Source of the DNA: a virus | Reading direction: 5' to 3' (one strand) | IMG/VR virus record: IMGVR_UViG_3300028841_000078 | Length of the DNA: 64,000 nucleotides | Shown: piece after piece, positions 9,960 to 51,286 of the stretch | How the letters are laid out: the number at the start of each line of letters is the position of its first letter | Numbering within the stretch: position 1 is the first letter of the stretch | Translations under genes and position numbers: made by a program | Notes under the pieces: model-generated | Databases searched by the model: none | What the model saw: the letters and a program-made list of their open reading frames with translations, nothing else | What the model was told of the DNA's origin: nothing

Positions 9960-10043
9960 ACGCCAAACTTATCAGGGGTCATTTTTAACTCACGCAATAA
10001 AAATACAGGCGTGAGTTATGCACGGCCTAGAAATAATAATCGT

Positions 10044-11212: not shown

Positions 11213-11242
11213 GTTAAACCCCATGCCCGTTACAGTGCGGGC

Positions 11243-11668: not shown

Positions 11669-11715
11669 CCAAATTGTGATTGTGAGCCTTGCGGTGGTGG
11701 CGTTTTTGCTTGGGT

Positions 11716-13167: not shown

Positions 13168-13453
13168 CGACGATCTTAATTCGGATGGCCGCTAACGCAT
13201 CCAACGCGGTCACGGCCAGCGAGTCAGCCATCGCGTCAAACAGCAACAGTTCGCGGTCATCGGTTCTGGTGTTCGGCACAAACCGCTGCCGCTTGGTCAG
13301 GCGCACCCGGCGCGACTTGTTAAGTTGGGCCTCAGCCGCCGCCGCGCACACTAACTTGATTTCCTTTTTAACGATATCGATCAGTTCTAGCACCGTTCGA
13401 TCTGAAAGACTTGAATCATGGGTTACCTCTGGGGGACGAATTTTTTTGGGCAT
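13079..13453 (-). CDS. hypothetical protein upstream of terL
   Basis: ORF overlapping both neighbours in the same operon. Confidence 0.45.
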   Translation of the reverse strand: MPKKIRPPEVTHDSSLSDRTVLELIDIVKKEIKLVCAAAAEAQLNKSRRVRLTKRQRFVPNTRTDDRELLLFDAMADSLAVTALDALAAIRIKIVVDATASQDYPSPYDRPPKGSFSADSSLFS

Positions 13454-13821
13454 GGTTCGCTCTGGGGGGATACTTGAACATGATTGCGTTCTAAGATGGC
13501 ATCGAGGGAAACGGGGACACGAAAGGGGATGTTTGCTATTTCGGTTTCAAGGTAAGTCCTCCCATAGTAATCAAGGATGGACTGGATACAGAGGGCATTC
13601 AGTCCGGGGTCCTTGCCGTGAAGCAGTGTGTGCCCCTCAGTGGTGAGGAGCACACAATTCCATGCTTGATCAATCCAGTGTTGGTCGCGTGGATTTAAGC
13701 CTGAGAAGCCACGTTCCAGCAAGCAATGATGAATCTCGTTACCCACCCCGCCGGTTACCGGGCAGCGTGGCCTGACTCGATAGATGGATTGGTAGAGGGC
13801 AAATGTTGCTTGTTTAGCCAT
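13423..13821 (-). CDS. HNH-like nuclease (possibly packaging-associated)
   Basis: 'CPVTG...EIHH...NCVLLTTEGHTLLH' pattern; lies near terL. Confidence 0.6.
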   Translation of the reverse strand: MAKQATFALYQSIYRVRPRCPVTGGVGNEIHHCLLERGFSGLNPRDQHWIDQAWNCVLLTTEGHTLLHGKDPGLNALCIQSILDYYGRTYLETEIANIPFRVPVSLDAILERNHVQVSPQSEPCPKKFVPQR

Positions 13822-29561: not shown

Positions 29562-30941
29562 ATGAAAAAGCCAATCGATCAGCTTGCCGGTGGGTTCGGG
29601 GCAGTAGCGGCCATCCAAACCCCAGAACAAACGCTTCGCCGCTTAGTGATGGCATCGCTCCTATGGGAGAAGTTGGCCTATGAATCGGGCGAATACAACG
29701 CCCTTGCCATCAAAGAGGCCATCTCGAAAGTGCCCGCGCCACAGGTGGCGGCAATTGCGATTGAGGCCCGCGAAAAGCAGCACCTGCGCCACACCCCGCT
29801 CTTCATCGCCGCCCAGATGTGCAAGTTGCCGACGCATCGCCCGTTTGTGGGCGGTGTGCTTGAGAAGATCTGCACTCGCCCCGACATGTTGGGCGACTTT
29901 ATGGCGCTGTATCAGATGGACAACAAAGACGCGCCCATCGCCAAGCAGGTCAAGACCGGCCTAGCCAAAGCCTTTGTCAAGTTCAGCGAGTATCAGCTTC
30001 GCAAATACGCCTCGCGTCAGGGCCAAGTCACCCTGCGTGATGTGATGTTTTTGGTGCATCCCAATCCGATTGAGAAGTGGCAGGTTGAGGCATTCAAGCA
30101 ACTGGCAAACAAAGAACTACCCCCCGCTGAAACGTGGGAGGTCATGCTGAGTTCAGGGGCAGACAAGTGCCGCACGTTCACTCAGTTGGTGCAAGGCGAC
30201 AAGCTGGGCGGCATGGCGCTATTACGCAACCTGCGCGGCATGAAAGAGGCCGGGGTGGATAAGCGCGTGATTCTGGGCGGGCTTGAACGCATGAAAACGG
30301 GCTACCTCTTGCCGATGAACTTTCTCTCCGCCGCCAAGAACGCGCCGGACTTTAGCGGTGCAATCGAACAGGCCATGTATCGCTGCTATGGCACCCAAGA
30401 GAAGCTGCCCGGAACGACCGTGTTCGCGGTGGACCGGTCGGGCAGCATGAATCAGCGCATCAGCGCACGGTCGGAGAATCAGCGCCTCGATGTGGCAATT
30501 GCGATGGCGATTCTGGCGCGGGAACGCTGCGAGAACCCGATCATCTACGCCACGGCAGGTCATGCCGGTCACGCCACAGTCCGGGTTCATCAGCGCGGCT
30601 TCGGATTGGCTGAGGAAATCAAGAACGCGCCCATCGGTGGCGGCGGTATCTATACCCGCCAGTGCCTTGAGTTCATTAGAAAGGACTTGGGCGACACCCA
30701 TGTTGACCGAGTGATCGTGTTCAGTGACAGCCAAGATTGCGACACCAGCCACAAGCTGCCCGCGCCGTTTGGCACCACGAATTACATCGTGGATGTATCG
30801 GCTCACAGCAAGGGCATCAATTACGGCCAGCTTTGGACCGCCGAAATCAGCGGCTGGTCTGATCACTTTCTCGACTACATTTTTGCGCTGGAAGGCATCA
30901 ACACAGTTGTCGATGACACGGGTGACGAAATCGAAGGCTAG
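29562..30941 (+). CDS. rsr: Ro60/Rsr-family TROVE domain RNA-binding protein with vWA domain
   Basis: LRHTPLF, VKTGLAKAFVKFSEYQLRKY, TLRDVMFLVHP, TWEVMLS, LGGMALLRNLR, MIDAS-like DRSGSM, VIVFSDSQ. Confidence 0.9.
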   Translation: MKKPIDQLAGGFGAVAAIQTPEQTLRRLVMASLLWEKLAYESGEYNALAIKEAISKVPAPQVAAIAIEAREKQHLRHTPLFIAAQMCKLPTHRPFVGGVLEKICTRPDMLGDFMALYQMDNKDAPIAKQVKTGLAKAFVKFSEYQLRKYASRQGQVTLRDVMFLVHPNPIEKWQVEAFKQLANKELPPAETWEVMLSSGADKCRTFTQLVQGDKLGGMALLRNLRGMKEAGVDKRVILGGLERMKTGYLLPMNFLSAAKNAPDFSGAIEQAMYRCYGTQEKLPGTTVFAVDRSGSMNQRISARSENQRLDVAIAMAILARERCENPIIYATAGHAGHATVRVHQRGFGLAEEIKNAPIGGGGIYTRQCLEFIRKDLGDTHVDRVIVFSDSQDCDTSHKLPAPFGTTNYIVDVSAHSKGINYGQLWTAEISGWSDHFLDYIFALEGINTVVDDTGDEIEG

Positions 30942-32070: not shown

Positions 32071-32161
32071 ACGTTGACCGCGATTACAGTTCATAAGTCA
32101 CCTTGTGAACTGTGCTGGCGGCACAACCGGCTTATCGGCAACCGTCCAAAGGAAACACAGA

Positions 32162-32692
32162 ATGGAAACCCCGAACGAAAATGAAACCCCTGAAACAAGT
32201 CAACCCAATCAGCCAGACGAACCCACGAACACCAACCCCATCGACAGCTTTCTGAGCGAGATCTCCGGCGGCGTGGCCTCGGACGCTGAGGAGCAAGACC
32301 ACAGCGACGATGCCGCGCACGATTCGGCCAGCGGGCTGACGGTCGATTTTGACAAGTGGTGGAGCGGTCAGGTACGCCTCTATCCGGGCTGGCCCGTCTT
32401 TCACTTTCAGATCGACAAGCCGTTTGCGGCGTTGGACAAGTCATACACCGCATTCAACACCGTTGCCACCCCGGAGATCGTCGCAAAGTGGGTTGAATTG
32501 CAGAGCGCCGGTCAGGTCAATCTGAATTCCAAGTATGGCAGTTCAAATCAATATGCCGCCTGTGAAATTGCGGGTGACCCGGACAACCCTGAGAAAGGCT
32601 TTCTCATTCGACTGGGCGGCGAACGCTACCGACTCGATGGAATGGCCTACGATGGCAAGGAATACACGACCGCGCAGATCATCGGCGAATAA
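32162..32692 (+). CDS. hypothetical protein with acidic N-terminus
   Basis: AAGGA RBS. Confidence 0.6.
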   Translation: METPNENETPETSQPNQPDEPTNTNPIDSFLSEISGGVASDAEEQDHSDDAAHDSASGLTVDFDKWWSGQVRLYPGWPVFHFQIDKPFAALDKSYTAFNTVATPEIVAKWVELQSAGQVNLNSKYGSSNQYAACEIAGDPDNPEKGFLIRLGGERYRLDGMAYDGKEYTTAQIIGE

Positions 32693-32706
32693 ATGAGGGA
32701 GGCAAC

Positions 32707-34491
32707 ATGGCGGCAATCGTCGTTGGTGAGGAGCATCTATTCTCTCAAAAGGCCAAGGGGCTGGTGCGGCTGAACAAACACCGCAGCGACACCCTGCCCG
32801 TTGCCTTTATCCCCGGCGGGTCGCACCGTCCGGTGATTTACGGAGAGATGGAGAAGTTCTTCACCCAACACAAGCATCCTGTTTTGTTTGTGCGGCCCTG
32901 CCCTGAATCGCCCAATCACGGCGGCGAGGTGGCGGGCTTTCAGTCTGAGGCTGTCAAGCGCGAGGCATCCATTCAGCAGGTCTGGAAGGTTCGCCAAGCA
33001 ATTGCCAAGAAGAATCTGCGGGCCGACATTGTGGTGATGCCCTATGTCCACGCCGATCTGTCCTGCGTGGTCGCACCGGGCAAATACTACGTGTGGGGAC
33101 TGGGCAACAACGGAGTCACCGCCGGGACAAGCGAGACGGTGGTGATTCCGATCAACCCCAAGAACCCCGGCCATTACTTTCTGTCCGCCGCCGGGTATGA
33201 CCCCAAGACCGTCGAGGTTGAGTTTGTGCGCGACAAGGCCAATCGAAAGGTCTACTGTGTCCAGATTCGTGCCGCCTCCGCCCACTTGGACATCGACCCC
33301 GCGCCCGAAGGAGCGTTGCCGGGGTTTGTCCCCGGCGGCAAGATGACGGTCGTCAAAACTTATCAAGTGAAAGACCTGAATGATCTTGGCGAACTGGAGT
33401 TTTTGAAGGGAACCGACACCGCAGGGCTATTAGTCATTCAGCCCACCGGCTCAATGCTCAGTCACGCGGCAGCGCACTGTCGCGGAGCCAAGATCGCATT
33501 TTGCATCGGGAAACCGGACATCAAGCCCGGAAGTGTCGTGGCCGAACCCGCGTCCGGTTGGCTGGTGGTCGGGGATGTCGAGGCCAAGCCGTATGACCCG
33601 GCCACCTACTGGGCGGACTTTCGGCGCGGCTTTGATGCGCCCCTCATCTGGGAGAGCATGAAACTAGGCACGTTCTTTCATCAGTGGGCCACCAAGCCCC
33701 TAGGCAGTCCAAATCGAGTCGCCTATCTGGGCGGTCGCTTTTGCAAATGGCTGGTGCAAGCGGGCATCACCGCCTTTTGTGGCGAGTCGCGTCACACCGA
33801 TTGTGTCCACAACAAAGGCGACTGGGGCGGGTATCAGATTCACCACCACTATGTCAACATGACCGGAGAACATGAACCACAACGCGCCACGATCTTAAAG
33901 ATGCTGCGCGACAGTCACGCGACCCTGCCCGATCTGTTGAAAGTCGCCCAATGGACCCACCAGATGTTTAGTCTCAGTTGGATGCACTCAATGGGTGGCT
34001 ACAAGTGGCAGATGTGCGCGGCATCGGCCATCAACTCGATTGAGGCGATTATGAAAGGCGACTGCAGCGCGGCCATCACCGCCCTCAACGCGCTTGAGAA
34101 CGGCGTTCACAACGGCGGGAAGCTGTTCAACAAGTTTCATGAGTCGCTGAAGTGGCTGGATATCGCCACAGCCGGGGTCAGCATGGACACAGGCGAAACC
34201 GGGCTTTCATCCGAGATCGCAGAGGTGGCCTTGCTCACCAAGTTCAACGACACCCCGGTAAAAGAATCTTCTATCCAATGGGCGACGACAGCGGCCTTGG
34301 CCGATATCGTCATCCCCAAGATGGGCAATCCTAAAGCGGTGCAGCCATCGGTTACATCGTCGGCGACGTTTACCGACAACGACTTCGCCCAGAAGTTCAA
34401 CGCAGGCGCGATGGCGGCGATGAACAAATCTCAACCAGAGGTTCCACCTAAAAAATCAGCAATGGTCATTCGACCAAAAAAGGGAATATGA
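32707..34491 (+). CDS. PEP-synthase/RPH-type dikinase: ATP-grasp, His-swivel domain, unknown C-domain
   Basis: KAKGLVRL..LPV, LFVRP, GLGNNGVTAG, VEVEF..VYCVQIRA (PPDK_N-like); GSMLSHAAAHCR phospho-His motif. Confidence 0.75.
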   Translation: MAAIVVGEEHLFSQKAKGLVRLNKHRSDTLPVAFIPGGSHRPVIYGEMEKFFTQHKHPVLFVRPCPESPNHGGEVAGFQSEAVKREASIQQVWKVRQAIAKKNLRADIVVMPYVHADLSCVVAPGKYYVWGLGNNGVTAGTSETVVIPINPKNPGHYFLSAAGYDPKTVEVEFVRDKANRKVYCVQIRAASAHLDIDPAPEGALPGFVPGGKMTVVKTYQVKDLNDLGELEFLKGTDTAGLLVIQPTGSMLSHAAAHCRGAKIAFCIGKPDIKPGSVVAEPASGWLVVGDVEAKPYDPATYWADFRRGFDAPLIWESMKLGTFFHQWATKPLGSPNRVAYLGGRFCKWLVQAGITAFCGESRHTDCVHNKGDWGGYQIHHHYVNMTGEHEPQRATILKMLRDSHATLPDLLKVAQWTHQMFSLSWMHSMGGYKWQMCAASAINSIEAIMKGDCSAAITALNALENGVHNGGKLFNKFHESLKWLDIATAGVSMDTGETGLSSEIAEVALLTKFNDTPVKESSIQWATTAALADIVIPKMGNPKAVQPSVTSSATFTDNDFAQKFNAGAMAAMNKSQPEVPPKKSAMVIRPKKGI

Positions 34492-35021
34492 ACACACAAC
34501 CAACCAAAATCGAAAATCAGAACTCCGCTCCAATCTTCACAATGAAGTGGTGGCGTGGCATCTTTATCACCAATGTCACCTGTGGCGGTCGTCAACCCAT
34601 GACGGACTTTGAACATCGAACCGATAAGCCCGATCTGGTCATCGGTGCAGCGGGGCTTGCCAAAGAGACGTACGCCTTTGGGGGCGGGTTTGACTTCATC
34701 AATCGCACCGCCAGACGCGCCGTGTATATCAACTGGCAAGACTTCGGGGTGCCCGACATGGACAAGTCATGGTGGGAGAACCTTTACGAATCCATCGAGC
34801 AGATCAAGCCCCGCCACATTCATGTGCAGTGCATGGGCGGGATGGGCAGGACGGGCACGATCTTGACGATTCTGCTCATCTTGTCGCGCCGGGATAAGAA
34901 GGACGCATTCAAGACGGTGGGCAGCGCGATTCAGTACATCCGGGCGCATGGCAATCCTCATGCGGTCGAAACCCCGGCCCAACGCCAGTACATCGCCGAC
35001 ATGACAGGAACCCAACTATGA
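34488..35021 (+). CDS. CX5R protein-tyrosine/dual-specificity-type phosphatase 1
   Basis: WQDFGVP acid loop; HVQCMGGMGRTGT; AVETPAQ. Confidence 0.85.
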   Translation: MNTQPTKIENQNSAPIFTMKWWRGIFITNVTCGGRQPMTDFEHRTDKPDLVIGAAGLAKETYAFGGGFDFINRTARRAVYINWQDFGVPDMDKSWWENLYESIEQIKPRHIHVQCMGGMGRTGTILTILLILSRRDKKDAFKTVGSAIQYIRAHGNPHAVETPAQRQYIADMTGTQL

Positions 35022-36028
35022 GCAGCCTTGTCAACGGCGATGATGCCGATGACTTCTTTTTTGGCAACGCCACAGGCGACCATGAGAAGTCAGAACCCAC
35101 ATCCACGCCCCTGCCCTTATTTACAGGGCACAAACACGACTCAGGGGTGAACTCAGCCTACACCTTAAGCTGGAGCGGCGGCAACAAAACCAAAGTGACC
35201 GGCGGCGGCAAGATGTATGCGGGGGACTTTAAGCACGACAAGACGATTGACTTTCTCATCTCGGCGGTCGCGCTTGAACCCCAAGCCCACTATGCCATCG
35301 GCGCAGATCTATCCTGCGCCGATGGCATTAGCGGCGTTCGCCATGCCGTGCTGCTCGATTGGCCGGACATGCAGGTGCCAAAAGTGCCGCTGAATTTTTG
35401 GGTCAATCTGATCAAAGACCTATCCACGATTCGGCCACAACACTTACATGTGCAGTGCGCGGGCGGCAACGGGCGCACCGGGACCACCTTAGCCATTCTG
35501 TTGCAGCTTGCAACCGGCGGCTACCCCTCCGTCGAGGTGTTGGTCAAGTCGCTTCGCGCAGGGTACCGTCAGGCGGCGGTCGAAACCAAATCCCAGTTTG
35601 ATTACATTGCTTACGTCTGCAACATCCCGGTCGGCGATGTGAAAGACATGATTCGGAAAGACCCGGTTGTGGTGAGTACGGCCACAAAGAAGCCGGTCAA
35701 AACCCCGCCGCTGGAAGGGCTTAAGAAGTCGGGCACAACCACGACCATTCAACTCTCGCCTGAGAAAGAGAAGATTCGCAAATCGAAATACTTTCTACAG
35801 TTCGATGCCGACTTCACGAGCAATCTACCGATTGACCTAGCGGTGGCTTACTACGAAATCTGGGAGAGCATCGGTAAGCCCATTCTGATCAAGAAGGGCA
35901 ACGTGCCCTATGCCGCCAAGGTGCCCACTGACCGGGTATATCCAGAACACATCCACCTTTACAAGCTGAGTGAGGACAAGCAGTTTTACCTGTCCGTGGC
36001 CCTCGCTCATGTGAACGAGAAGAAATGA
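35018..36028 (+). CDS. CX5R phosphatase 2 with C-terminal extension
   Basis: WPDMQVP; HVQCAGGNGRTGT; AVETKSQ. Confidence 0.85.
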   Translation: MSSLVNGDDADDFFFGNATGDHEKSEPTSTPLPLFTGHKHDSGVNSAYTLSWSGGNKTKVTGGGKMYAGDFKHDKTIDFLISAVALEPQAHYAIGADLSCADGISGVRHAVLLDWPDMQVPKVPLNFWVNLIKDLSTIRPQHLHVQCAGGNGRTGTTLAILLQLATGGYPSVEVLVKSLRAGYRQAAVETKSQFDYIAYVCNIPVGDVKDMIRKDPVVVSTATKKPVKTPPLEGLKKSGTTTTIQLSPEKEKIRKSKYFLQFDADFTSNLPIDLAVAYYEIWESIGKPILIKKGNVPYAAKVPTDRVYPEHIHLYKLSEDKQFYLSVALAHVNEKK

Positions 36029-38133
36029 ACCCAAACAAGAAGCCATCCTCAGTCAAGCCCCACATGAACACCGCCAAAGATTACGCTGTTAAACCCACCA
36101 GTGTCTCCTCCTCTTGGCATGAGGATGGAGACTTGTTCAAGTGTGTTGCCAAGGTTCGCACCCTGTCTGGCGATACCCTGCGAATGCAGATCGTGGACCT
36201 GTCTGCTGAGTTCAACATCCCGGTCGATGTCGATATCTCCTCGCTCATCACCAATATCTGTGAGGGCAATCCGGGCAAGATGCTGTCATCGAACGTGGCC
36301 GGGTCAAACAAGAAGTATTACCCCTGCTTACTGGCCGTGAACAAAAGCAAGAACTTCGTGATGCGAATTCAGTGCAATCCAGTCAATCGGCCTTATGGCC
36401 TGAGCATCGCCTTCGTGGATGCCGATGTGATCAAGCTGATTCTGGACCAAATCAAAGGCATCAATCAAAGCAAACTCACCGCCAAGGGCTATGAGGGTGA
36501 GGGTGAGGGCGATGATAAGCCACCCACCTTTACCGGCCCATCGCTGGCCGCACAGATTCAAACAAATCCAGACCCGGCAACACCGGTGCACATCATTGTT
36601 AAGACCCAAATCGTCAACTCGACCATTGTCCTAGCCACCAAGATACGCCACCTGCTTGAGTGTCTGCATGAGGGCGTGGCGATGGACGTTCAGCAGGACG
36701 CGATGAATCAGGCGTATGTTGCGGCCAATCATCTAGTGAATAAGCTGACCGAGCACAATCTCTTTTTGTCAGACCGCGACAACATCAAGAGCTTTGCCTA
36801 CTTCGTCAGCGACAACTTTAATACCTTTGTCGGCAACAAGATCGAACCGATTCTGTCCCGCGCCCAGACCGCGCTGGTGTCAGCGGAGCATGTCGCCAGC
36901 CAGTATTCAGCCTACATCACCCCTGACATCAACGATATTTTGGTCCAGCACATCAAGACCTACACATGGGTCAATATGTTGGACGCGAGTTTAAGTCTAT
37001 ATCAACATCACCATGACACCGGCTCCGCCGCTCATATCGCAGCGGCCAGTCAAGCATTTCAATACGCCACCAAAATCGCTAGTCACATCGATGTGACACC
37101 GGCCTACGCTCACGAACTCAAGGCAGACCTGTTGACTGAAAACCCGATCAACCCGGACTATGCCAAGTATTTAAGTGGCAAGGTCAAATCGACCCTGCAT
37201 CAGTTTCACAGCGCCAATGGCAAGCTGATTCTCATGGTGGGCAAAGAGGTTGCCCAAGCCCTCTCGGTGGTAGCGCTGCTTGAGTTGGCGATGGGAATTC
37301 AAGGCCCGGACTGCGCCGATCACCTCATCAAAGAAGCAATCACGGCGCACAACAAGATCATTCTTGGACTGCCCGATGTGGTCCCGGCGCTCATGAAACT
37401 GCTTGGCGGGTCATCCCCGCTATCGATCTATGTCAACAATGGCAGCGCCCTTGATGTTAAAAACGCCTACCTAAATCTGGCACGTGATCTTGTCTACAAA
37501 CACATCTTCCGGCCCATTGGCCCAACCTATACCGGAAACGTGTTGCTAGAACATGAAGAAGAAACGCTGGCAAAGATCGGGCTGCTCATGCTTTACGGGA
37601 TGCACTCCGCACCTGAGACGATGAAAGGCTATGCTCAGTACATTATCACCCTGATCAGGCCGCTGCTGCTTGCCATCAAAGAGGATGGCAAACCGGTGTC
37701 GTATGGCTATCACCTGTCGCTGATGCGGGCGATATCGGCCTGTTTAACCGTGCCCAAGCACAGTTTACAGATGACCGGCAAGGCCGAGATGTTCGCCGGA
37801 ATTAGCCCCGGCGAGATGGATGTAAAGATCACCCTAAGCTCGATTCAGTTTGAAAGCACATTCGGGGTCATCGTGGCGGATATGGCCTTCTTGTATCTGA
37901 CCGCAACACGGCACCTGCCGGTGGGCGCGGCCACCCTGCAAAAGATCGCTATTCAGGCCAAGTCTCTAGCCAATCACCCACTCAAGCACATCTTCCTTGG
38001 CTATGCCACCCGGCTTCTGGGAATCGCCAAATACATCAACGAGAATGAGCAGGGCGCACTGATCACAGACGTTCAAGACAAGATTGCCGACACCGCAGAC
38101 AATGCCTTACAAATGATTCTAGCCTCACTGTGA
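36025..38133 (+). CDS. 702-aa hypothetical protein (helical C-terminal half)
   Basis: Long ORF, ATGA-coupled; no recognisable motif. Confidence 0.75.
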   Translation: MNPNKKPSSVKPHMNTAKDYAVKPTSVSSSWHEDGDLFKCVAKVRTLSGDTLRMQIVDLSAEFNIPVDVDISSLITNICEGNPGKMLSSNVAGSNKKYYPCLLAVNKSKNFVMRIQCNPVNRPYGLSIAFVDADVIKLILDQIKGINQSKLTAKGYEGEGEGDDKPPTFTGPSLAAQIQTNPDPATPVHIIVKTQIVNSTIVLATKIRHLLECLHEGVAMDVQQDAMNQAYVAANHLVNKLTEHNLFLSDRDNIKSFAYFVSDNFNTFVGNKIEPILSRAQTALVSAEHVASQYSAYITPDINDILVQHIKTYTWVNMLDASLSLYQHHHDTGSAAHIAAASQAFQYATKIASHIDVTPAYAHELKADLLTENPINPDYAKYLSGKVKSTLHQFHSANGKLILMVGKEVAQALSVVALLELAMGIQGPDCADHLIKEAITAHNKIILGLPDVVPALMKLLGGSSPLSIYVNNGSALDVKNAYLNLARDLVYKHIFRPIGPTYTGNVLLEHEEETLAKIGLLMLYGMHSAPETMKGYAQYIITLIRPLLLAIKEDGKPVSYGYHLSLMRAISACLTVPKHSLQMTGKAEMFAGISPGEMDVKITLSSIQFESTFGVIVADMAFLYLTATRHLPVGAATLQKIAIQAKSLANHPLKHIFLGYATRLLGIAKYINENEQGALITDVQDKIADTADNALQMILASL

Positions 38134-45694: not shown

Positions 45695-46056
45695 GCTTTC
45701 TTGAACGCAATCAGATGAGCGAACCGCTGCACAAGGCGATGCGAATGATGTGGAATAGCCCGCTGTCCGGCCCAATGTATGCCGTGATTGATTTGATGTG
45801 GCAAGACAACATCAGATTCGAGAATGGCAATGCGGAGTGGGGCAGTTGGTTGGACCAAGTTCATCGCGTCACCAAAGATTGCAAGACGTATCAAGAGGCA
45901 GCACTGTGCGCCAAGCGCAATAAGTTCCGGGTTAATTTAGGGAGTCACTGCAGCATCATCTTGTTTGGTCTGACTGACCTAATGACCCTTGATGATTGGG
46001 AGACTCTACTGTGCTATTGCCAAATGCACCAAGAACAGATTAGCCATGAATCTTGA
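45691..46056 (+). CDS. hypothetical protein
   Basis: ATGA-coupled. Confidence 0.55.
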   Translation: MSFLERNQMSEPLHKAMRMMWNSPLSGPMYAVIDLMWQDNIRFENGNAEWGSWLDQVHRVTKDCKTYQEAALCAKRNKFRVNLGSHCSIILFGLTDLMTLDDWETLLCYCQMHQEQISHES

Positions 46057-47107
46057 CACCAAACTTCCGCCGATCTTCAACGCCTCCACCGCCGACACCG
46101 CGCTGCTGAAGCTAGTTCAAAAGCGTCAAGCCGAGGGGGTCCACCCGCTGCGCTGGCATATCCCTTACTTTGACAACACCGCCTTCCCCTTGTTCCCCAC
46201 ATGGTCGTATCTGATCTGTGGGCGACCGGGCAGCATGAAGTCCACGCTCCTAGCCTATCTGGTCAAGATGTGGGGCAAGGACTTAGCCGTTGAGAACGAG
46301 GGGCGCGACCTGAAGCGAGTCGGCATCATCTATCGGCCTGAAGAAACCGTTGAACAGGCCCGTCATGCCACATGGGAATACAAGGCCACTAGTTACGTCG
46401 ATATCTTGAACGGCAAGCCCAAGATTGAGGACATGAAGAAGATCATCGCCATGCAAAAGCAGCCGCCGATTCTGTATATGGGTCAGACGGAGGTGAAAGA
46501 ACTCGCCCCCACTGCCCGGATTAACCGGGGGCGGGTGTCCACGCGAGATCTGTGGCGGGCGTGTGAGGCGGTCAAAAAGGGGCAGTTCTTTGAGAAAACA
46601 GAGATTGCGTTCTTAGCCGTGGACGGAATGCACCTGCTTGACGACGAATCTCACGAACGAAAGAAGGTCGAGCGCATGGCAAACGTGCCGACTGAACTGA
46701 ACGCCATCGGCTTTGACTTTGACTGCAGCATCATCGTCACCACCCAAGCCACCCAAAAAGGCACCAAAGATCAGAAAGATTCGATTCCGCGCATGGAGGA
46801 CATCGCGTGGAACTCGACCGCATCCCAAGACTTTTATGCCTTTCTAGGGGTGGAGCGGTTGGTTAAAAAGCCCAATATCACGATGGCAAAGATGAATGCA
46901 CTGGGTCTTTGGGAGGGAGACTTTGTAAAGGTGCAGGACGAACAAAACAAAAAATACGAGGTGCCCATCACGATCAATCTGATGACCGCGATGTTCGACA
47001 AGTTTCGCGGCACCCGTAACTGTGAATCAAGGCGCTTTGCGATGTGGGCGGAGGAGGATGGCGACATCACCCAAAAGCATCTGCCCGCATTTCAGAAAGG
47101 ACTTTAG
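46046..47107 (+). CDS. DnaB/RecA-fold replicative helicase
   Basis: Walker A GRPGSMKST, Walker B LAVDGMHLL, IIVTTQ, DKFRG arginine finger. Confidence 0.8.
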   Translation: MNLDTKLPPIFNASTADTALLKLVQKRQAEGVHPLRWHIPYFDNTAFPLFPTWSYLICGRPGSMKSTLLAYLVKMWGKDLAVENEGRDLKRVGIIYRPEETVEQARHATWEYKATSYVDILNGKPKIEDMKKIIAMQKQPPILYMGQTEVKELAPTARINRGRVSTRDLWRACEAVKKGQFFEKTEIAFLAVDGMHLLDDESHERKKVERMANVPTELNAIGFDFDCSIIVTTQATQKGTKDQKDSIPRMEDIAWNSTASQDFYAFLGVERLVKKPNITMAKMNALGLWEGDFVKVQDEQNKKYEVPITINLMTAMFDKFRGTRNCESRRFAMWAEEDGDITQKHLPAFQKGL

Positions 47108-47174
47108 TTCAACTCACGCGGGTCGTAACGGATTCGCGTGAGTTATCACATCGATGTGACATCCTAGGTGACCT

Positions 47175-48152
47175 ATGACAACTCCCCGTTTCGACAAAGA
47201 CGCTCTCAAACGACAAATCCCAATTGAAGAAGTCATTGCGGCAGATCACCCACTCAAACAAAAAAGTCCTAGATTGCTAGTCGGTGCCGCCGACGACTGC
47301 GATAGCTTAATGGTCGAGGTCGATAAACAGATGTTCAGTTGGTGGCGACCCGGCTGGCACGGCGATGTCTTTGTCTACCTGATGGAGACGCGCAACATCG
47401 ACTTTCGGGAAGCCTTACGCATCTTGGCTGAGTTTCGGTCAGCCTGCCCAGACATCCCGCCGCCCAAAGCCTTTAAGCAATACGACGAAAAGCCCAAGCC
47501 CGCCATTGACCCGACCCTGCCAGACCGGTTGCACAACAACCTGTTAGACAACACCGTGGCCCTTGATTACCTGATCAATCGCGGCATCGGCTTTGATGAC
47601 ATCACCCGCTACAAACTAGGCTTCCAGTCGAATTACTTAGGCCAAGGCGACATCATCGCCATCCCGGTCTACGATGGCGAGAAACTCATGAACATGCGCT
47701 TTCGGCGCATGGTGGACAGCAAACAGTCCAAGCTACCGCGCTATGGCTACATGCTCACCGGTCACGGTGCCCAACTGTATAACGCCGCGCTGCTCGATCA
47801 AAAGCGCGATACGGTCTACATCGTGGAGGGTGAGTTCAAGGCCATCACCGCCAACGCCTTTGACCTGCCCGCAGTCGGCATCATGGGCGCGTCCTCAATG
47901 AAAACTGAATGGTTTGGCCGGTTCAAGTCTGCCCGCCGGGTGATCGTCGCACTCGACAATGATCAACGTCCGTTTGAGTTACCGTGGGTGAAGGGCCTTG
48001 CCGCCGCACATGGCAACGTGCGGGTCATTCAACTCTACGACAAGATCGATGACCTTTTACTGAGTGGAGGCGCATCGTTCGTATTGAGCGCCAGCGAATC
48101 TGCTCAAAAGGTTATTCCTGATGAAAGTCAAAAACAACCAAGATACGGTTAA
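47175..48152 (+). CDS. DnaG-type/TOPRIM primase
   Basis: GDVF..LM....DFREAL; YIVEGEFKAI; IVALDND. Confidence 0.85.
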   Translation: MTTPRFDKDALKRQIPIEEVIAADHPLKQKSPRLLVGAADDCDSLMVEVDKQMFSWWRPGWHGDVFVYLMETRNIDFREALRILAEFRSACPDIPPPKAFKQYDEKPKPAIDPTLPDRLHNNLLDNTVALDYLINRGIGFDDITRYKLGFQSNYLGQGDIIAIPVYDGEKLMNMRFRRMVDSKQSKLPRYGYMLTGHGAQLYNAALLDQKRDTVYIVEGEFKAITANAFDLPAVGIMGASSMKTEWFGRFKSARRVIVALDNDQRPFELPWVKGLAAAHGNVRVIQLYDKIDDLLLSGGASFVLSASESAQKVIPDESQKQPRYG

Positions 48153-48654
48153 TAAGATCGGCAAACGTGCCGCTGTCGAACTAGCCCTGTCCAAAGCGCC
48201 AAAGGCAAAACATCCCTTTGGCGCTTTTGGCGAGGCGGTCATTCTTGCCAACGGCAAACCCTATTTCCCCTCACCGGCTGAGGTGATGCGGGCAGAGCGG
48301 GTGGTCTTGCCTTACATCGTCAGCTTCTATGTCTCACATGGCCGGGTGCCCAGCGCGGTCGAATGCAGCCAAGACTTGAATATCTCAAGCATTGACCGAG
48401 TTCGCAAGCTCTTTCACATCCTAATCGGGCGCGGGCACCTGAGCAAGTCATCAACCGGCGGCTTCATGCAACTCGTCGGCCACGCTGACCAAAAGGGCGC
48501 GGCGGAGTTGCTCAAGCAAATCACCCCGGAATACTTGAAAGGGCTGGACGCGCTGGACAGCAAAACCCGCGACGACATGCTGGCGCTGATTAAATTTGTG
48601 GCACTCACAAAATGGGTGTTGCCTGCAGGAGAGGTGAAATGGGGAAAGAGTTAA
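48121..48654 (+). CDS. LexA-like wHTH DNA-binding protein without peptidase domain
   Basis: GRVPSAVECSQDLNISSIDRVRKLFHILIGRGHL. Confidence 0.65.
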   Translation: MKVKNNQDTVNKIGKRAAVELALSKAPKAKHPFGAFGEAVILANGKPYFPSPAEVMRAERVVLPYIVSFYVSHGRVPSAVECSQDLNISSIDRVRKLFHILIGRGHLSKSSTGGFMQLVGHADQKGAAELLKQITPEYLKGLDALDSKTRDDMLALIKFVALTKWVLPAGEVKWGKS

Positions 48655-49169
48655 TCATGGGGCTGGACCTTGGCATCGCCTCCCCCTGCGGGGTGGCGGT
48701 CATTAACTACGACACCGAGAAACTGCTCTTTTGCTTTCAGGTAGAGCAGCCGTTTAGCAAGGGCAGGCACCCGACCGAGCAAAAGATCATGGCGATGGTG
48801 GACGCGGTTGACAAAGCCTGTCGTGACATCTGGCCGCTTTCGGCGTGGTGCGGCTTTGAGGCCGCGCCTTTCATGCAGAACCGAAAAATATACGGCGACA
48901 TGGCCCGACTGTCCGGGGCGCTCATGTGGATGCTGCGGTCGCGTGGGGTGGGGTATCAGAATATCTCCGTCTCAGAGGCCAAGGGGTCACTTGGACTGAC
49001 GGCGGGTAAAAGCGACAAGGCCGATGTGCAGCGCATGGTGCGCGGTATCTACGGCGAGTCGATTGGGGCGGTGCCTGAACATGCCGCCGATGCCGTGGCC
49101 GTGGCCCGCGCCACAGTGCTACGCATCAAAAACATTCAAGCCGAAATGAAAGCGGCGGCGTTTATGTAA
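48639..49169 (+). CDS. ruvC: RuvC-like Holliday junction resolvase
   Basis: IMGLDLG, FE, SEAK...GKSDKADV, HAADAVAVA. Confidence 0.85.
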   Translation: MGKELIMGLDLGIASPCGVAVINYDTEKLLFCFQVEQPFSKGRHPTEQKIMAMVDAVDKACRDIWPLSAWCGFEAAPFMQNRKIYGDMARLSGALMWMLRSRGVGYQNISVSEAKGSLGLTAGKSDKADVQRMVRGIYGESIGAVPEHAADAVAVARATVLRIKNIQAEMKAAAFM

Positions 49170-49213
49170 CAGTGAAAATCCTGCTTATCAGGGTTTTGGT
49201 CAATAGGAGATTT

Positions 49214-49549
49214 ATGGCTAAGAAATTCTTTTCATACGACCCACTTGAAGGGATGTTGTTTTGGGATACAGCAGAGCAAGCCAAGGCCGAAGCCGAACGG
49301 GCATTGAGTGGCAATGTGGACTTTGGCGAGTGGTCATCGCAAGAGGATGAGATTGAGTTGATTTGTTGGGGCGCTGTCACTGAGGCCGCCACTTGCACTC
49401 TACGCAAGGAGCGACCGTCTTTGGCCGAACTGGATAACGAGGGGTACAGCAAGGATGGCACATGGTGGGGGCGCAATGTTGATTCAATTTTGGATTTCAA
49501 GATGAAGCCAATCAGTGAACACATGGAGCCTATCAGAGCAAAACCCTGA
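49214..49549 (+). CDS. hypothetical protein
   Basis: AGGAG RBS. Confidence 0.6.
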   Translation: MAKKFFSYDPLEGMLFWDTAEQAKAEAERALSGNVDFGEWSSQEDEIELICWGAVTEAATCTLRKERPSLAELDNEGYSKDGTWWGRNVDSILDFKMKPISEHMEPIRAKP

Positions 49550-49567
49550 TAAGGCACGTTATCAAGG

Positions 49568-50110
49568 TCACCCGTCCCACTCTTTGCTAAAGACCGCAAC
49601 CTTGCCGCCGGGGATATCGATGTGGGTGGCTGCGATATTCTTGATCTCGATCTTGGTTACGGCGGCGGCGGCTTTGATTAGGATGTTGGCAAGTCGCTCC
49701 TGCGCCCGGAGTGCCTCTTTGTAATCTGGGTCGTCGATTCCTAAGCCATCTTCACGCAGCTTGTTGATGCGTTCAACCACAGCGGCGTGAGCCTCAAGCG
49801 CGGTCTTAACCGCCTGAGACACGCCGATGTAGCTGGTCGTTTGGGCTTGTGCGGCGGCAATCTCCTTGACCGCTAAGACATAGGCCGTGCGACGGTTCCA
49901 CCAGTCATTCATCGCGGCGGTGGTCAACAGGTCTTTCTCATCCGGGTAAACACGGGCGAGATACTCAGTGATGCTTTCGGTCAGCATGGAGTTTCGGCTG
50001 AACTCAAGGAACCGCGAATAATCAACCTCAGTCTCTTGAGGCCAGCGCTCCCATGCTTGGGCGGGGGCGGCAACGGGGGTATCGACGGTGGCAAGGTTTA
50101 GTGATGGCAT
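49568..50110 (-). CDS. terminase small subunit-like protein
   Basis: WERWPQETEVDYSRFLEF...WWNRRTAY pattern typical of TerS-like proteins; -10 TATGCT at leaderless distance. Confidence 0.55.
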   Translation of the reverse strand: MPSLNLATVDTPVAAPAQAWERWPQETEVDYSRFLEFSRNSMLTESITEYLARVYPDEKDLLTTAAMNDWWNRRTAYVLAVKEIAAAQAQTTSYIGVSQAVKTALEAHAAVVERINKLREDGLGIDDPDYKEALRAQERLANILIKAAAAVTKIEIKNIAATHIDIPGGKVAVFSKEWDG

Positions 50111-50279
50111 CAAACAAGCATATCAAAACCTGCAGACATGTCACATCAATGTGACAGGCAACCGGAATTGCCAATAAACGCTCAGACAACGCCTGTGTGA
50201 TATCGATAAATATCTTGTGTCTGAGCGTGGAAAATGGTAAAACTGAGTTAAATCATCATTCATCCACAATGCGGACACT

Positions 50280-50510
50280 ATGAACAACGATATTCAAATC
50301 CGACGCTTAGAGTTCACCATCCAAAGCCTGTTGGTTCGTCTGGCCGATGCCCGCTTCGGCAACCCGCACGAGTCTGCCTCAGCGGTGGCCGCATGGTCGA
50401 ACTTCATCGATCTCCCCAGTGAGAGTTTGTCTGAACGTGCCGCCCGCGATCTTGAGGTCGAGAAACTTATCAACCAACTTACACCGAGGCCAAGCGATGA
50501 TCAACTGTGA
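50280..50510 (+). CDS. hypothetical protein
   Basis: Class-B-like promoter upstream. Confidence 0.55.
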   Translation: MNNDIQIRRLEFTIQSLLVRLADARFGNPHESASAVAAWSNFIDLPSESLSERAARDLEVEKLINQLTPRPSDDQL

Positions 50511-50563
50511 ATTTGTCCTTGTCCTCTTGATTGTGGCGGTGCTGCTCAGTCTTAGGTCTAAAT

Positions 50564-51286
50564 ATGATTGAAACCACTTACGAATTGTTCAACGAAGATT
50601 GCACTAAGTTTTTACGTGAGGCGAAAGACAAACAGTATCAGGTGGTCGTGACTGACCCGCCGTATGGGATTAACGAGAACGAGAAGAAAATCATGTCGCG
50701 TGGCTCAAAGGCAGCGCCCCCGATTGACTATGGCGTGGTCGATTGGGACAAGGAACGGGTGCCCGACGAACTGATCATCAACTGCCTTCGCATCAGCAAG
50801 CAGCAGGTGATCTTCGGCGGCAATTACTACATCGATCTGTTGCGCCCCGGCCCCTCATGGATTGTCTGGGACAAGCAAAACAGCGGCGACTTTGCGGACT
50901 GTGAACTGGCGTGGACCAGCCACAACAAGGCGGTGCGTAAGTTCACCCACATGTGGAATGGCTTCTTGAAGAAAGTCCCTGAGAAGCGATACCACCCCAC
51001 TCAAAAGCCACTAGCCCTCATGCAGTGGGTGATTGAGAACTACACCGAACTCGGCGACACCGTGATCGACCCGTTTATGGGCAGCGGCACGACCGGGGTC
51101 GCGTGTGTGATGCTTGGCCGAAACTTTATCGGCATCGAGCGCAATGAACGTTATTTCGAGGATGCCAAGATGCGGATTGAGTTTGCCTCTAGTCAACCCA
51201 CACTGCTAGGTCTAATGAATGGGGTGGGGCAGGTTGATCTAACGCAAGGCTCAATCGATTTTGGCGAGTCTGAATTATTCAAATAA
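50564..51286 (+). CDS. DNA N6-adenine/N4-cytosine methyltransferase (beta class)
   Basis: VTDPPY, HPTQKP, VIDPFMGSGTTG. Confidence 0.9.
   Translation: MIETTYELFNEDCTKFLREAKDKQYQVVVTDPPYGINENEKKIMSRGSKAAPPIDYGVVDWDKERVPDELIINCLRISKQQVIFGGNYYIDLLRPGPSWIVWDKQNSGDFADCELAWTSHNKAVRKFTHMWNGFLKKVPEKRYHPTQKPLALMQWVIENYTELGDTVIDPFMGSGTTGVACVMLGRNFIGIERNERYFEDAKMRIEFASSQPTLLGLMNGVGQVDLTQGSIDFGESELFK

What the first reader, a model, noticed from the sequence alone, without database searches (positions are those of the whole stretch)
32707..34491. Phage-encoded dikinase (PEP synthase/rifamycin phosphotransferase architecture) with an unknown acceptor domain
Seen: a reduced ATP-grasp region with PPDK_N-like motifs in the expected order, a swivelling His domain (GSMLSHAAAHCR), and about 290 aa of unrelated helical C-domain (GESRH, MGGYKW, HNGGKLFNKF). 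Known: this layout transfers the beta-phosphate of ATP via phospho-His to a substrate held by the third domain (pyruvate, rifamycin, glucan). Inference: a new phosphotransferase with an unknown target, such as a protein, nucleotide signal, RNA end or glycan. It is translationally coupled to two phosphatases.
Basis: partly seen in the sequence, partly recalled or inferred. Interest (0 to 1): 0.72.

Follow-up and report, generated by a model that had tools for sequence, protein, structure and literature searches.

The report
Phage dikinase with unknown acceptor domain
A phage gene encodes an ATP-driven "swinging-histidine" phosphate-transfer enzyme whose usual substrate domain is replaced by an unknown helical domain; it nearly always travels with tyrosine-phosphatase-like genes, also occurs in cultured Vibrio phages, and what it phosphorylates is unknown.

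Summary
ORF 32707-34491 (+, 594 aa) is real, has a strong ribosome-binding site, and is joined by ATGA overlaps to two phosphatase genes and a fourth gene.

- **Fold.** The AlphaFold2 model has pLDDT 91. Residues 1-290 are a reduced PPDK-type ATP-grasp plus a swivelling His domain (Z 16.7 to rifampin phosphotransferase, 15.8 to PPDK). His253 is invariant.
- **C domain.** Residues 295-545 form an all-helical domain with no convincing match in PDB, AlphaFold DB clusters or the ESM Atlas. It carries an invariant polar set (E360, R362, G430-G431, H468, K476).
- **Family.** There are 594 representatives at 50% identity, and 153 of 159 sampled members carry all three domains.
- **Neighbours.** In 55 of 61 phage loci the adjacent gene is a Cys-phosphatase with classical-PTP signatures. 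A third orphan domain follows in 29 loci. Here it is probably the N-terminus of the 702-aa downstream protein.
- **Cultured phages.** The module also occurs split. The "putative membrane protein" of Vibrio phage vB_VneS_J26 is the acceptor domain, next to a Pfam-recognisable PPDK_N + mobile-His protein published as a "PPDK" metabolic gene. 41 phage records hold it.

The target stays unknown. My best guess is a hydroxyl on a protein. This scan has noted the same module on other DNA before.

The parts
32695..32702 (+). Shine-Dalgarno sequence GAGGGAGG, 4 nt upstream of the ATG at 32707
32707..34491 (+). Dikinase-type phosphotransferase gene, 594 aa
32728..33321 (+). Reduced ATP-grasp nucleotide-binding domain (about residues 8-205). 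K15, R63, E172, Q186 and R188 are invariant.
   Evidence: VIA-align Z 11-12 to the isolated ATP-grasp domains of RPH, PPDK and PEPS; Foldseek hits to RPH/PEPS/PPDK and ATP-grasp ligases; conservation
33322..33579 (+). Swivelling phospho-histidine domain (about residues 206-291); catalytic His253 codon at 33463-33465
   Evidence: Model residues 1-290 align as one unit to RPH (Z 16.7) and PPDK (Z 15.8); the His motif aligns to PEPS 9dae and to a PPDK; H253 is invariant
33589..34341 (+). Family-specific all-helical acceptor domain (about residues 295-545). E360, R362, G430, G431, H468 and K476 are invariant; H325, R393, W425 and N469 are nearly invariant.
   Evidence: Domain model pLDDT 94; no significant fold match; conservation; stand-alone homologue in Vibrio phage J26
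34342..34488 (+). Predicted disordered basic C-terminal tail (residues 546-594)
   Evidence: pLDDT 36-60; pI 10
34488..35021 (+). Phosphatase 1 (177 aa), minimal classical-PTP-like; the start overlaps the dikinase stop (ATGA)
   Evidence: PF00102 E 8.5e-10; RPTP epsilon E 9.5e-11; WQD, CX5R and Q-loop intact; junction
35018..36028 (+). Phosphatase 2 (336 aa), PTP core at about residues 100-200 with N- and C-terminal extensions; ATGA overlap
   Evidence: PF00102 E 6.2e-9; WPD and CX5R; junction
36025..38133 (+). 702-aa protein, ATGA-coupled to phosphatase 2; residues about 42-144 (36148-36456) probably carry the module's third conserved domain
   Evidence: hhalign probability 93.5%, E 2.3e-7, 101 columns, against the ~140-aa protein that follows the phosphatase in 22 other loci; weak direct HMM hits in the same gene position in relatives; junction
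32105..32692 (+). 195-aa unknown protein directly upstream, conserved at this position only in the closest relatives
   Evidence: cluster c22 is found at this position in W, L001, L002 and L003 only; no Pfam or PHROG hit

Best explanation
The gene encodes a three-domain His-swivel dikinase-type phosphotransferase. Inferred cycle, by analogy with PPDK, PEP synthase and RPH: the reduced ATP-grasp domain binds ATP and loads His253 of the swivel domain, releasing AMP and later Pi. The swivel domain then carries the beta-phosphate to the helical C domain. There the invariant polar cluster (E360, R362, R393, K476, H468/N469 and the G430-G431 turn) binds an acceptor and catalyses transfer to one of its hydroxyl groups. 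The enzyme is the first gene of a translationally coupled operon with two hydrolytically competent classical-PTP-like phosphatases and a protein that probably carries a third conserved orphan domain. I read this as a writer/eraser (or activate-then-release) module used early in infection. The fold, the motifs and the gene linkage are shown. The reaction products and the acceptor are inferred. My committed guess for the acceptor is a side-chain hydroxyl of a protein, with tyrosine favoured, either on the co-encoded third domain or on a host protein (about 0.4). Alternatives are a small molecule (about 0.3), a nucleic-acid end or base (about 0.15) and a glycan (about 0.1).
For: - **Fold.** AF2 pLDDT 91. 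Residues 1-290 superpose on RPH (Z 16.7, 272 residues) and PPDK (Z 15.8, 268 residues). Foldseek top hits are RPH, PEPS and PPDK at E 3.5e-6 to 1.7e-5. AFDB cluster hits for residues 10-290 are PEP-synthase-like.
- **Catalytic residues.** H253 is invariant and aligns with the catalytic His of PEPS 9dae and of a PPDK. The E172...Q186-x-R188 motif aligns to PPDK's ...EF...LQxR segment.
- **Rosetta-stone fission.** In Vibrio phage J26 a 691-aa protein with PPDK_N (E 1e-45) and the PEP-utilizers mobile domain (E 2e-19), but no TIM barrel, lies close to a PTP (a CsrA-like gene lies between) and a 337-aa protein. That 337-aa protein matches the C-domain profile at E 6.4e-13 and keeps the ExRH, GGKxW and HNxG..NK motifs.
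- **Architecture.** 153 of 159 family proteins carry both the N and C parts.
- **Linkage.** A PTP gene is adjacent in 55 of 61 loci, down to about 23% dikinase identity.
- **Phosphatases look active.** D85, C115, R121, T122, E161 and Q165 are invariant. The nearest solved relatives are classical receptor PTPs.
- **Third domain.** It has invariant Q, S, Y and N.
- **Precedent for aryl hydroxyl acceptors.** HpeHI, CreHI and PpsAB are phenolic dikinases (PMC12167813).
Against: - No biochemistry exists for any family member.
- Pfam and PHROG profiles do not recognise the protein, so the assignment rests on predicted structure, motifs and the fission form.
- For a protein target: every characterised non-central-metabolism dikinase acts on a small molecule or a glucan, not on a protein. 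The deep conservation of many polar residues in the C domain looks more like a small-molecule active site than a docking surface. The third domain is detected in only 29 of 61 loci.
- The ATP-grasp is about 200 aa against about 310-340 aa in RPH and PPDK, so nucleotide handling may differ.
Confidence: 0.62

Rival explanations
1. It is a small-molecule dikinase like RPH, HpeHI, CreHI or PpsAB. The C domain would bind a metabolite, antibiotic-like compound, phenolic compound, nucleotide or immune signal and phosphorylate it. The phosphatases would act on a different phosphate of the same pathway, or recycle the product.
For: All known dikinases outside PPDK, PEPS and glucan dikinases act on small molecules (PMC4844700, PMC12167813). 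The C domain has a compact set of invariant Glu, Arg, His and Lys residues typical of a catalytic pocket. Protein-language-model features of the C domain are nearest to clusters carrying 'Rph_4th' (PF27448), at score 0.86, which is a lead only. The C domain is soluble with a near-neutral pI.
Against: An obligate, translationally coupled phosphatase in 55 of 61 loci would make a futile cycle on a small molecule unless the sites differ. The domain order differs from RPH-type enzymes. Neither the Foldseek PDB list nor the wide VIA-align list for the C domain contained RPH.
Confidence: 0.3
2. It is a polymer-directed phosphorylation cycle like plant alpha-glucan, water dikinase with the SEX4/LSF2 phosphatases. 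The module would phosphorylate and dephosphorylate host glycogen or another glycan to mobilise or remodel it.
For: To my knowledge (not tested here), GWD/PWD with SEX4/LSF2 is the only described system that pairs a His-swivel dikinase functionally with CX5R phosphatases. One relative, L004, sits next to glycosyltransferase, sugar methyltransferase and UDP-galactopyranose mutase genes.
Against: Pfam finds no carbohydrate-binding module in the dikinase, the phosphatases or their long relatives. The phosphatases resemble classical PTPs with a Q-loop rather than SEX4-type DSPs. The sugar genes are not conserved neighbours.
Confidence: 0.1
3. It acts on nucleic acids, either as an end-healing pair (a kinase for 5'-OH or 3'-OH ends plus a phosphatase) or as a DNA-base hypermodification step through a phosphorylated or pyrophosphorylated intermediate.
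For: The phosphatases also hit PTP-SAK, a domain of RNA-repair proteins. In this window a Ro60/TROVE gene lies 1.8 kb upstream. In relatives the module sits among replication and recombination genes: SSB, Rad52-like, PDDEXK, RNA ligase and DnaB in L004 and L006, SNF2 helicase and ArdC-like in L010, and DNA polymerase A in phage J26. A dikinase His-pyrophosphate intermediate could in principle pyrophosphorylate a base hydroxymethyl group; this is inference.
Against: The C domain has a near-neutral pI (median 7.1 over 104 members). Ro60 and RNA ligase are not conserved neighbours. No hydroxymethylase or thymidylate-synthase-like gene was found among the window ORFs scanned. The PHROG 'thymidylate synthase' label on the phosphatases is a mislabel of a PTP domain.
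Confidence: 0.15
4. It is a degenerate relic: the protein binds ATP or a ligand but no longer transfers phosphate, for example as a structural or regulatory protein.
For: The ATP-grasp is much reduced, and the sequence lies outside Pfam's PPDK_N and PEP-utilizers models.
Against: The catalytic His and the Lys, Arg, Glu, Gln and Arg positions are invariant across 100-105 diverse sequences. The phosphatase partner also keeps every catalytic residue.
Confidence: 0.05

Closest known systems
Pyruvate, phosphate dikinase and PEP synthase (C. symbiosum PPDK 1KBL/1DIK; N. meningitidis PEPS 2OLS)
   Same: Same domain order: ATP-grasp, swivelling phospho-His domain, then acceptor domain. Residues 1-290 superpose on PPDK at Z 15.8. 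The His motif and the E...QxR motif align.
   Different: There is no PEP/pyruvate TIM barrel; a 250-aa all-helical domain takes its place. The ATP-grasp is about 200 aa instead of about 340. Pfam PPDK_N and PEP-utilizers models do not hit.
Rifampin phosphotransferase and the small-molecule dikinases (RPH-Lm 5HV1/5HV3; HpeHI, CreHI, PpsAB; PMC4844700, PMC12167813)
   Same: Best structural match to the ATP-grasp plus His unit (Z 16.7; Foldseek E 3.5e-6). The acceptor domain is not a TIM barrel. The engine can be split into separate polypeptides, as in HpeHI and in the Vibrio phage form.
   Different: In RPH-type enzymes the His domain is C-terminal, after the substrate-binding domain; here it is central. 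The RIF-binding domain is a 428-aa three-subdomain cross with an alpha/beta arm (PMC4844700); this C domain is all-helical. RPH appears in neither of the two C-domain PDB search lists.
Split 'PPDK' + PTP + 'putative membrane protein' module of Vibrio phage vB_VneS_J26 and 40 other cultured phage records (Vibrio, Stenotrophomonas, Rhizobium, Rhodobacter phages)
   Same: These are true relatives. The stand-alone 337-aa protein matches the C-domain profile (E 6.4e-13) and keeps its invariant motifs. The PTP matches the partner-phosphatase profile (E 4.4e-17).
   Different: The engine and the acceptor are separate genes, and the engine is a Pfam-recognisable PPDK_N + mobile domain. The gene order is engine, CsrA-like, PTP, acceptor. 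The literature calls the engine a glycolytic auxiliary metabolic gene (PMC12038007); the missing TIM barrel does not support that.
Alpha-glucan, water dikinase with SEX4/LSF2 (plants) and laforin (animals)
   Same: System-level analogy: a His-swivel dikinase is functionally paired with CX5R phosphatases in a phosphorylate/dephosphorylate cycle (my knowledge, not tested here).
   Different: No carbohydrate-binding modules were detected. The domain order and the acceptor domain differ. The phosphatases here are classical-PTP-like with a Q-loop.
Enzyme I / HPr of the bacterial PTS
   Same: A swivel phospho-His domain homologous to that of PPDK passes phosphate to a small protein that docks on a helical subdomain. 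This is a precedent for a protein acceptor (my knowledge; the homology is noted in PMC12167813).
   Different: Enzyme I is charged by PEP through a TIM barrel, not by ATP through an ATP-grasp. No HPr-like protein was identified here.

Membership tests
His-swivel dikinases (PPDK / PEPS / RPH superfamily) | ATP-grasp nucleotide-binding domain of the PPDK_N type | tested here: met
   Met by predicted structure: VIA-align Z 11-12 to the isolated ATP-grasp domains and Z 15.8-16.7 for ATP-grasp plus His together; Foldseek E 3.5e-6. The Pfam PF01326 model itself gives no hit at E<=0.1.
His-swivel dikinases (PPDK / PEPS / RPH superfamily) | Swivelling phospho-histidine domain with the catalytic His in a G-x-x-x-S-H-A-A type motif | tested here: met
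   H253 is invariant in 105 sequences. It aligns with ...GGMTSHAA... of PEPS 9dae (E 0.19 but in register) and of a PPDK. The fold co-aligns with the RPH and PPDK swivel domains.
His-swivel dikinases (PPDK / PEPS / RPH superfamily) | Conserved ATP/Mg site residues (PPDK K22, R92, E323, Q335, R337) | tested here: inconclusive
   K15, R63, E172, Q186 and R188 are invariant. E172/Q186/R188 align to the PPDK ...EF...LQxR segment in a low-probability hhalign and in the J26 engine. The equivalence of K15 and R63 rests on motif order and on PDB titles of K22A and R337A mutants. No residue-level structural alignment was available.
PPDK / PEP synthase proper | C-terminal PEP/pyruvate-binding TIM barrel (PEP-utilizers_C) | tested here: not met
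   No Pfam hit. Residues 295-545 are modelled with high confidence as all-helical. It therefore should not be filed or annotated as PPDK or PEPS.
RPH-type small-molecule dikinases | Domain order ATP-grasp, substrate-binding domain, C-terminal His domain | tested here: not met
   Here the His domain (206-291) precedes the acceptor domain (295-545). The RPH order is taken from PMC4844700.
RPH-type small-molecule dikinases | Substrate-binding domain homologous to the RIF-binding domain / Pfam Rph_4th (PF27448) | tested here: inconclusive
   ESM-feature neighbours carry Rph_4th at score 0.86, a lead only. PF27448 is absent from the Pfam copy available. RPH is listed in neither the Foldseek nor the VIA-align wide output for the C domain.
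His-swivel dikinases (PPDK / PEPS / RPH superfamily) | Reaction ATP + acceptor (+ H2O or Pi) -> AMP + acceptor-P + Pi or PPi via phospho-His | not testable with these tools
   Needs a labelled-ATP assay and the H253A mutant.
Classical Cys-based protein tyrosine phosphatases (the two downstream genes) | C(X)5R(S/T) P-loop, general-acid Asp in a WPD-type loop, Q-loop Gln | tested here: met
   D85, C115, G120, R121, T122, G123, E161 and Q165 are invariant over 46 partner phosphatases. PF00102 hits at E 8.5e-10 and 6.2e-9. The best solved relatives are receptor PTPs epsilon and sigma. The N-terminal half, including the pTyr-recognition loop, is not matched.
Glucan dikinase / glucan phosphatase system (GWD-SEX4) | Carbohydrate-binding modules on the dikinase and/or the phosphatase | tested here: inconclusive
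   No CBM family appears among Pfam hits for the window proteins or for eight long relatives. Absence of a Pfam hit does not exclude a divergent binding module.

The most novel reading that the evidence does not exclude
The module is a new kind of protein-phosphorylation system. An ATP-grasp/His-swivel engine, unrelated to Hanks, BY or histidine kinases, phosphorylates a tyrosine or serine on a dedicated small protein domain. That domain is the third conserved component, which has invariant S, S and Y and here forms the N-terminus of the 702-aa protein; alternatively the target is a host protein. Classical-PTP-like enzymes act as built-in erasers. This would be a self-contained writer/eraser/substrate switch used by phages during takeover.
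Probability: 0.15. Interest if true: 0.88.

Novelty: new variant of a known kind. Interest (0 to 1): 0.7.

Why it matters
The swivelling-His dikinase engine is known from only a handful of reactions: pyruvate, glucans, rifampin and phenolics. Here it is joined to an acceptor domain with no recognisable relatives and is almost always locked to tyrosine-phosphatase-like enzymes.

- **Scale.** The family has hundreds of 50%-identity clusters, mostly in uncultured phages.
- **Tractability.** It is also present, split into separate genes, in at least 41 sequenced cultured phages of Vibrio, Stenotrophomonas, Rhizobium and Rhodobacter.
- **Mislabelling.** In those phages the engine is published as a carbon-metabolism "PPDK" gene and the acceptor as a "membrane protein".

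Finding the acceptor would define a new phosphorylation reaction of phage-host conflict. It would also correct a recurrent misannotation in viral "auxiliary metabolic gene" surveys. Because cultured hosts exist, the question can be tested directly.

Tried and rejected
- **Profile libraries.** Pfam and PHROGs give no hit for the 594-aa protein, eight long relatives, ten N-terminal-only matches or all 104 C domains.
- **PDB sequence search.** Profiles of the whole protein, the N half and the C domain gave only a sub-threshold, in-register hit to the PEPS His motif.
- **C-domain fold searches.** Foldseek against PDB gave nothing at E<=0.3. VIA-align wide gave a best Z of 7.0, to designed or GPCR-like helical bundles, within the background for helical models. 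The ESM Atlas gave TM<=0.28. AFDB clusters returned the family's own member plus five weak unnamed or DUF5636 entries. The scattered heme-oxygenase-like, TenA and PqqC rows have probabilities of 0.03-0.05. The E360-x-x-H363 pattern is not a conserved metal motif, because H363 varies to Y or W.
- **Rph_4th lead.** It could not be tested, because PF27448 is not in the Pfam copy.
- **Complex prediction, dikinase 1-548 with phosphatase 1.** No verdict (score 0.00). This is neither for nor against binding.
- **tblastn of fused forms against cultured phages.** No match. Only the split form was found.
- **Genome collection scan.** Two loci, both in MAGs. No whole genome is held for the window.
- **'Membrane protein' reading of the acceptor domain.** Rejected: the maximum 19-residue Kyte-Doolittle score is 0.96-1.19.
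- **Third component.** No Atlas neighbours. Every homologue with a source name is called 'hypothetical protein' or carries only Tara coordinates.
- **BFVD.** Only Bacillus phage G Gp139 (365 aa, TM by target 0.53) stands out; most other rows are generic ATP-grasp proteins.
- **Literature.** Searches found no functional study of the phage module.
Full report
**Observation.** The window holds an uninterrupted ORF at 32707-34491 on the + strand, 594 aa.
- A GAGGGAGG ribosome-binding site lies four bases upstream of the ATG.
- The ORF's stop overlaps the start of the next gene in an ATGA. The same overlap recurs at the next two junctions: 34488-34491, 35018-35021 and 36025-36028.
- Four genes are therefore read as one translationally coupled unit: the candidate dikinase, two phosphatases and a 702-aa protein.
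- The surrounding contig is phage-like. It has a DnaB-like helicase, a primase, a Dit-type tail protein and an FtsK/terminase-like ATPase, and RuvC and a DNA methylase. No whole genome is held for it.

**Family.** Neither Pfam nor PHROGs recognises the protein, but it is not an orphan.
- A word-indexed search found 19 relatives down to 24% identity.
- An exhaustive HMMER scan of 1.8 billion cluster representatives found 594 at E<=1e-3 and 35 at E<=1e-30.
- Over 105 aligned members, R63, P66, G72, G136, T138, Q186, R188, H253, E360 and R362 are invariant. About twenty further positions are at least 90% conserved.
- With profiles of the two halves, 153 of the 159 proteins collected carry both the N-terminal engine and the C-terminal domain. 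The rest are mostly fragments.

**Structure of the engine.**
- AlphaFold2 with this alignment gives a confident model: mean pLDDT 91, pTM 0.88. Only residues 546-594 are disordered.
- Foldseek against the PDB ranks rifampin phosphotransferase (5hv1, E 3.5e-6), PEP synthase (2ols) and PPDK (1dik, 1kbl) first, followed by ATP-grasp ligases.
- AlphaFold DB clusters return PEP-synthase-like entries for residues 10-290.
- VIA-align re-scoring gives Z 16.7 (272 residues, rmsd 3.9) to RPH 5hv3 and Z 15.8 (268 residues) to PPDK 1kbl, in both cases for model residues 1-290. Isolated ATP-grasp domains score Z 11-12 for residues about 3-192.
- So residues about 8-205 are a reduced ATP-grasp and residues 206-291 are the swivel domain.
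- At sequence level the family profile aligns its ...G-S-x-L-S-H-A-A... segment in register with the catalytic His segment of PEP synthase 9dae (E 0.19) and of a bacterial PPDK. The ...E-x-E-F...V-Q-x-R... segment falls on the PPDK ...L-E-F...L-Q-T-R... segment (a low-probability alignment).
- From established PPDK enzymology, and from the PDB titles of the K22A, R337A and T453A mutants listed, the invariant K15, R63, E172, Q186 and R188 are the expected ATP/Mg ligands. I could not obtain a residue-level structural alignment, so I mark that equivalence as inferred.

**The C domain.**
- Folded alone with 104 sequences, residues 292-548 give pLDDT 94 and about twelve helices.
- Foldseek against the PDB gives nothing better than E 0.3.
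- The Foldseek-independent VIA-align sweep of 48,161 chains peaks at Z 7.0 on designed or GPCR-like bundles, which is background for helical models.
- The ESM Atlas gives TM<=0.28.
- AlphaFold DB clusters return the family's own member and a few weak unnamed entries.
- Protein-language-model features place it nearest to clusters annotated Rph_4th (PF27448) at score 0.86, which the tool itself rates a lead only. That family is missing from the Pfam copy, and RPH appears in neither C-domain PDB search list. I leave the link open.
- The domain is soluble (maximum 19-residue hydropathy 0.96) with a near-neutral pI, median 7.1 across the family.
- E360, R362, G430-G431, H468 and K476 are invariant; H325, R393, W425 and N469 are nearly invariant. 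This is the make-up expected of a phosphoryl-transfer site rather than a passive scaffold. That reading is inference.

**Gene fission in cultured phages.** This is the strongest independent support.
- Fused forms gave no tblastn match in 50,697 phage records.
- The literature, however, led to Vibrio phage vB_VneS_J26, published as carrying a "PPDK" auxiliary metabolic gene (PMC12038007).
- In its record the 691-aa "PPDK" is followed by a CsrA-like gene, a protein-tyrosine phosphatase, a 337-aa "putative membrane protein", a 284-aa gene labelled 'pyruvate decarboxylase' and DNA polymerase A.
- Pfam sees PPDK_N (E 1e-45) and the PEP-utilizers mobile domain (E 2e-19) in the 691-aa protein, but no TIM barrel.
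- The 337-aa protein matches my C-domain profile at E 6.4e-13 and keeps the ExRH, GGKxW and HNxG..NK motifs. The phosphatase matches the partner-phosphatase profile at E 4.4e-17.
- The window's protein is thus the fused form of a textbook dikinase engine plus this acceptor domain.
- The stand-alone acceptor occurs in 41 cultured phage records: Vibrio 34, Stenotrophomonas 4, Rhizobium 2 and Rhodobacter 1. The module can therefore be studied experimentally.

**The module.**
- I collected 61 loci: the window, 8 contigs holding close and distant relatives, and 52 IMG/VR loci.
- I called ORFs and clustered them.
- A phosphatase of one family lies next to the dikinase in 55 loci. Of the six exceptions, one is cut by a contig end and three are near-identical contigs.
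- The phosphatases keep an invariant general-acid Asp, the Cys-X5-Arg-Thr-Gly loop and a ...V-E-T-x-x-Q... Q-loop.
- Their nearest solved relatives are classical receptor tyrosine phosphatases, E 9.5e-11 and 4.5e-8. They also hit the PTP-SAK model weakly.
- They therefore look like competent hydrolases, closer to classical PTPs than to dual-specificity enzymes, although their N-terminal halves are unmatched.
- A third orphan protein of about 140 aa follows the phosphatase in 22 loci and in L004/L005.
- By profile-profile comparison it is probably homologous to residues about 42-144 of the window's 702-aa protein: hhalign 93.5%, E 2.3e-7. Weak direct hits in the same gene position in relatives support this.
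- It has invariant Gln, Ser, Tyr and Asn, no named homologues and no Atlas neighbours.
- Other neighbours (SNF2 helicase, ArdC-like, SSB, Rad52-like, RNA ligase, sugar-modifying enzymes, Ro60) vary from lineage to lineage.

**Mechanism.**
- Shown: an ATP-grasp of the dikinase type, a swivel domain with an invariant His, a conserved third domain that can exist as a separate polypeptide beside a canonical engine, and an obligate intact Cys-phosphatase partner.
- Inferred: ATP loads His253, AMP and Pi leave, the swivel domain delivers the beta-phosphate to the C domain, and an acceptor hydroxyl is phosphorylated. The phosphatases reverse this or process the product.
- On the acceptor I commit only weakly.
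  - A protein hydroxyl (about 0.4) is favoured by the classical-PTP character of the partners, by the writer/eraser logic of a locked pair, by the co-encoded orphan domain with invariant Ser and Tyr, and by the Enzyme I/HPr precedent.
  - The known preference of several dikinases for phenolic hydroxyls makes tyrosine chemically plausible (HpeHI, CreHI, PpsAB; PMC12167813).
  - A small molecule (about 0.3) is favoured by precedent (PMC4844700).
  - A nucleic-acid target (about 0.15) and a glycan target (about 0.1, the GWD/SEX4 analogy) have little specific support.
- A complex prediction for the dikinase with phosphatase 1 returned no verdict. It counts neither way.

**Comparison and novelty.**
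- The protein works like PPDK, PEPS and RPH, but it is not a member of PPDK/PEPS proper (no TIM barrel) and does not fit the RPH layout (different domain order, no detectable RIF-binding-domain likeness).
- It is best described as a new variant of the His-swivel dikinase kind, with a new acceptor domain and a fixed phosphatase partner.
- Published phage genome papers label the engine as a metabolic PPDK and the acceptor as a membrane or hypothetical protein (PMC12038007). The domain content found here does not support those labels.
- Earlier notes of this scan describe the same dikinase-phosphatase module on other DNA. I re-derived the architecture and the linkage here. This report adds the explicit match of the window's C domain to the stand-alone protein of cultured Vibrio phages, and the probable presence of the third component in the window's 702-aa protein.

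**Verdict.** The target is unknown but testable in cultured phages. Interest 0.70.

Noticed in passing
window 29562-30941 (+): A Ro60-like protein (TROVE E 1e-14 plus a weak vWA; PHROG 'RNA-binding protein' E 1.5e-23) lies 1.8 kb upstream of the dikinase. The closest relative L001 has the same gene, but it is not a conserved neighbour of the module elsewhere.
   Followed up: partly
window 34488-36028; L010 8135-9325: PHROG phrog_17568, labelled 'thymidylate synthase', matches only the PTP catalytic core of these phosphatases (E 5e-14, 1e-9, 2e-11). The PHROG label looks wrong for these members.
   Followed up: partly
L067 (Vibrio phage vB_VneS_J26, PP534163) 9495-13640: The published 'pyruvate phosphate dikinase' lacks the PEP/pyruvate TIM barrel. 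The 'putative membrane protein' two genes downstream is a soluble homologue of the window's acceptor domain. The neighbouring 'pyruvate decarboxylase' (284 aa) and 'CsrA' (160 aa) labels have no Pfam support.
   Followed up: yes
L010, L011, L023, L026, L027, L028 phosphatase genes (C-terminal extensions): Many marine-clade partner phosphatases (360-420 aa) carry CxxC pairs after the PTP core, with a weak hit to a small zinc-finger family (HVO_2753_ZBP, E 0.005). This may be a zinc ribbon that targets the phosphatase.
   Followed up: no
window 36025-38133 (+): After the probable third-component domain, the 702-aa protein has about 550 further residues with no Pfam or PHROG match. Relatives of 710 and 871 aa keep the same position, and L008 has only a 251-aa version.
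   Followed up: partly
P0020, P0033, P0071, P0105, P0128, P0134, P0153: Family members of 1,090-1,410 aa carry N-terminal extensions of 450-750 aa with no Pfam match and no CX5R motif. These are further unknown domains fused to the engine.
   Followed up: partly
L004 3374-7171: In one relative the module sits next to a GT2 glycosyltransferase, a TylF/CmcI-type methyltransferase, a UDP-galactopyranose mutase and a GDSL lipase. This sugar-modification cluster is not seen in other loci.
   Followed up: no
window 45989-51286 (+): Replication and recombination block: DnaB-like helicase (45989-47107), primase (47175-48152), RuvC (48612-49169) and an N6/N4 DNA methylase (50531-51286). Most other ORFs scanned have no family match.
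   Followed up: no
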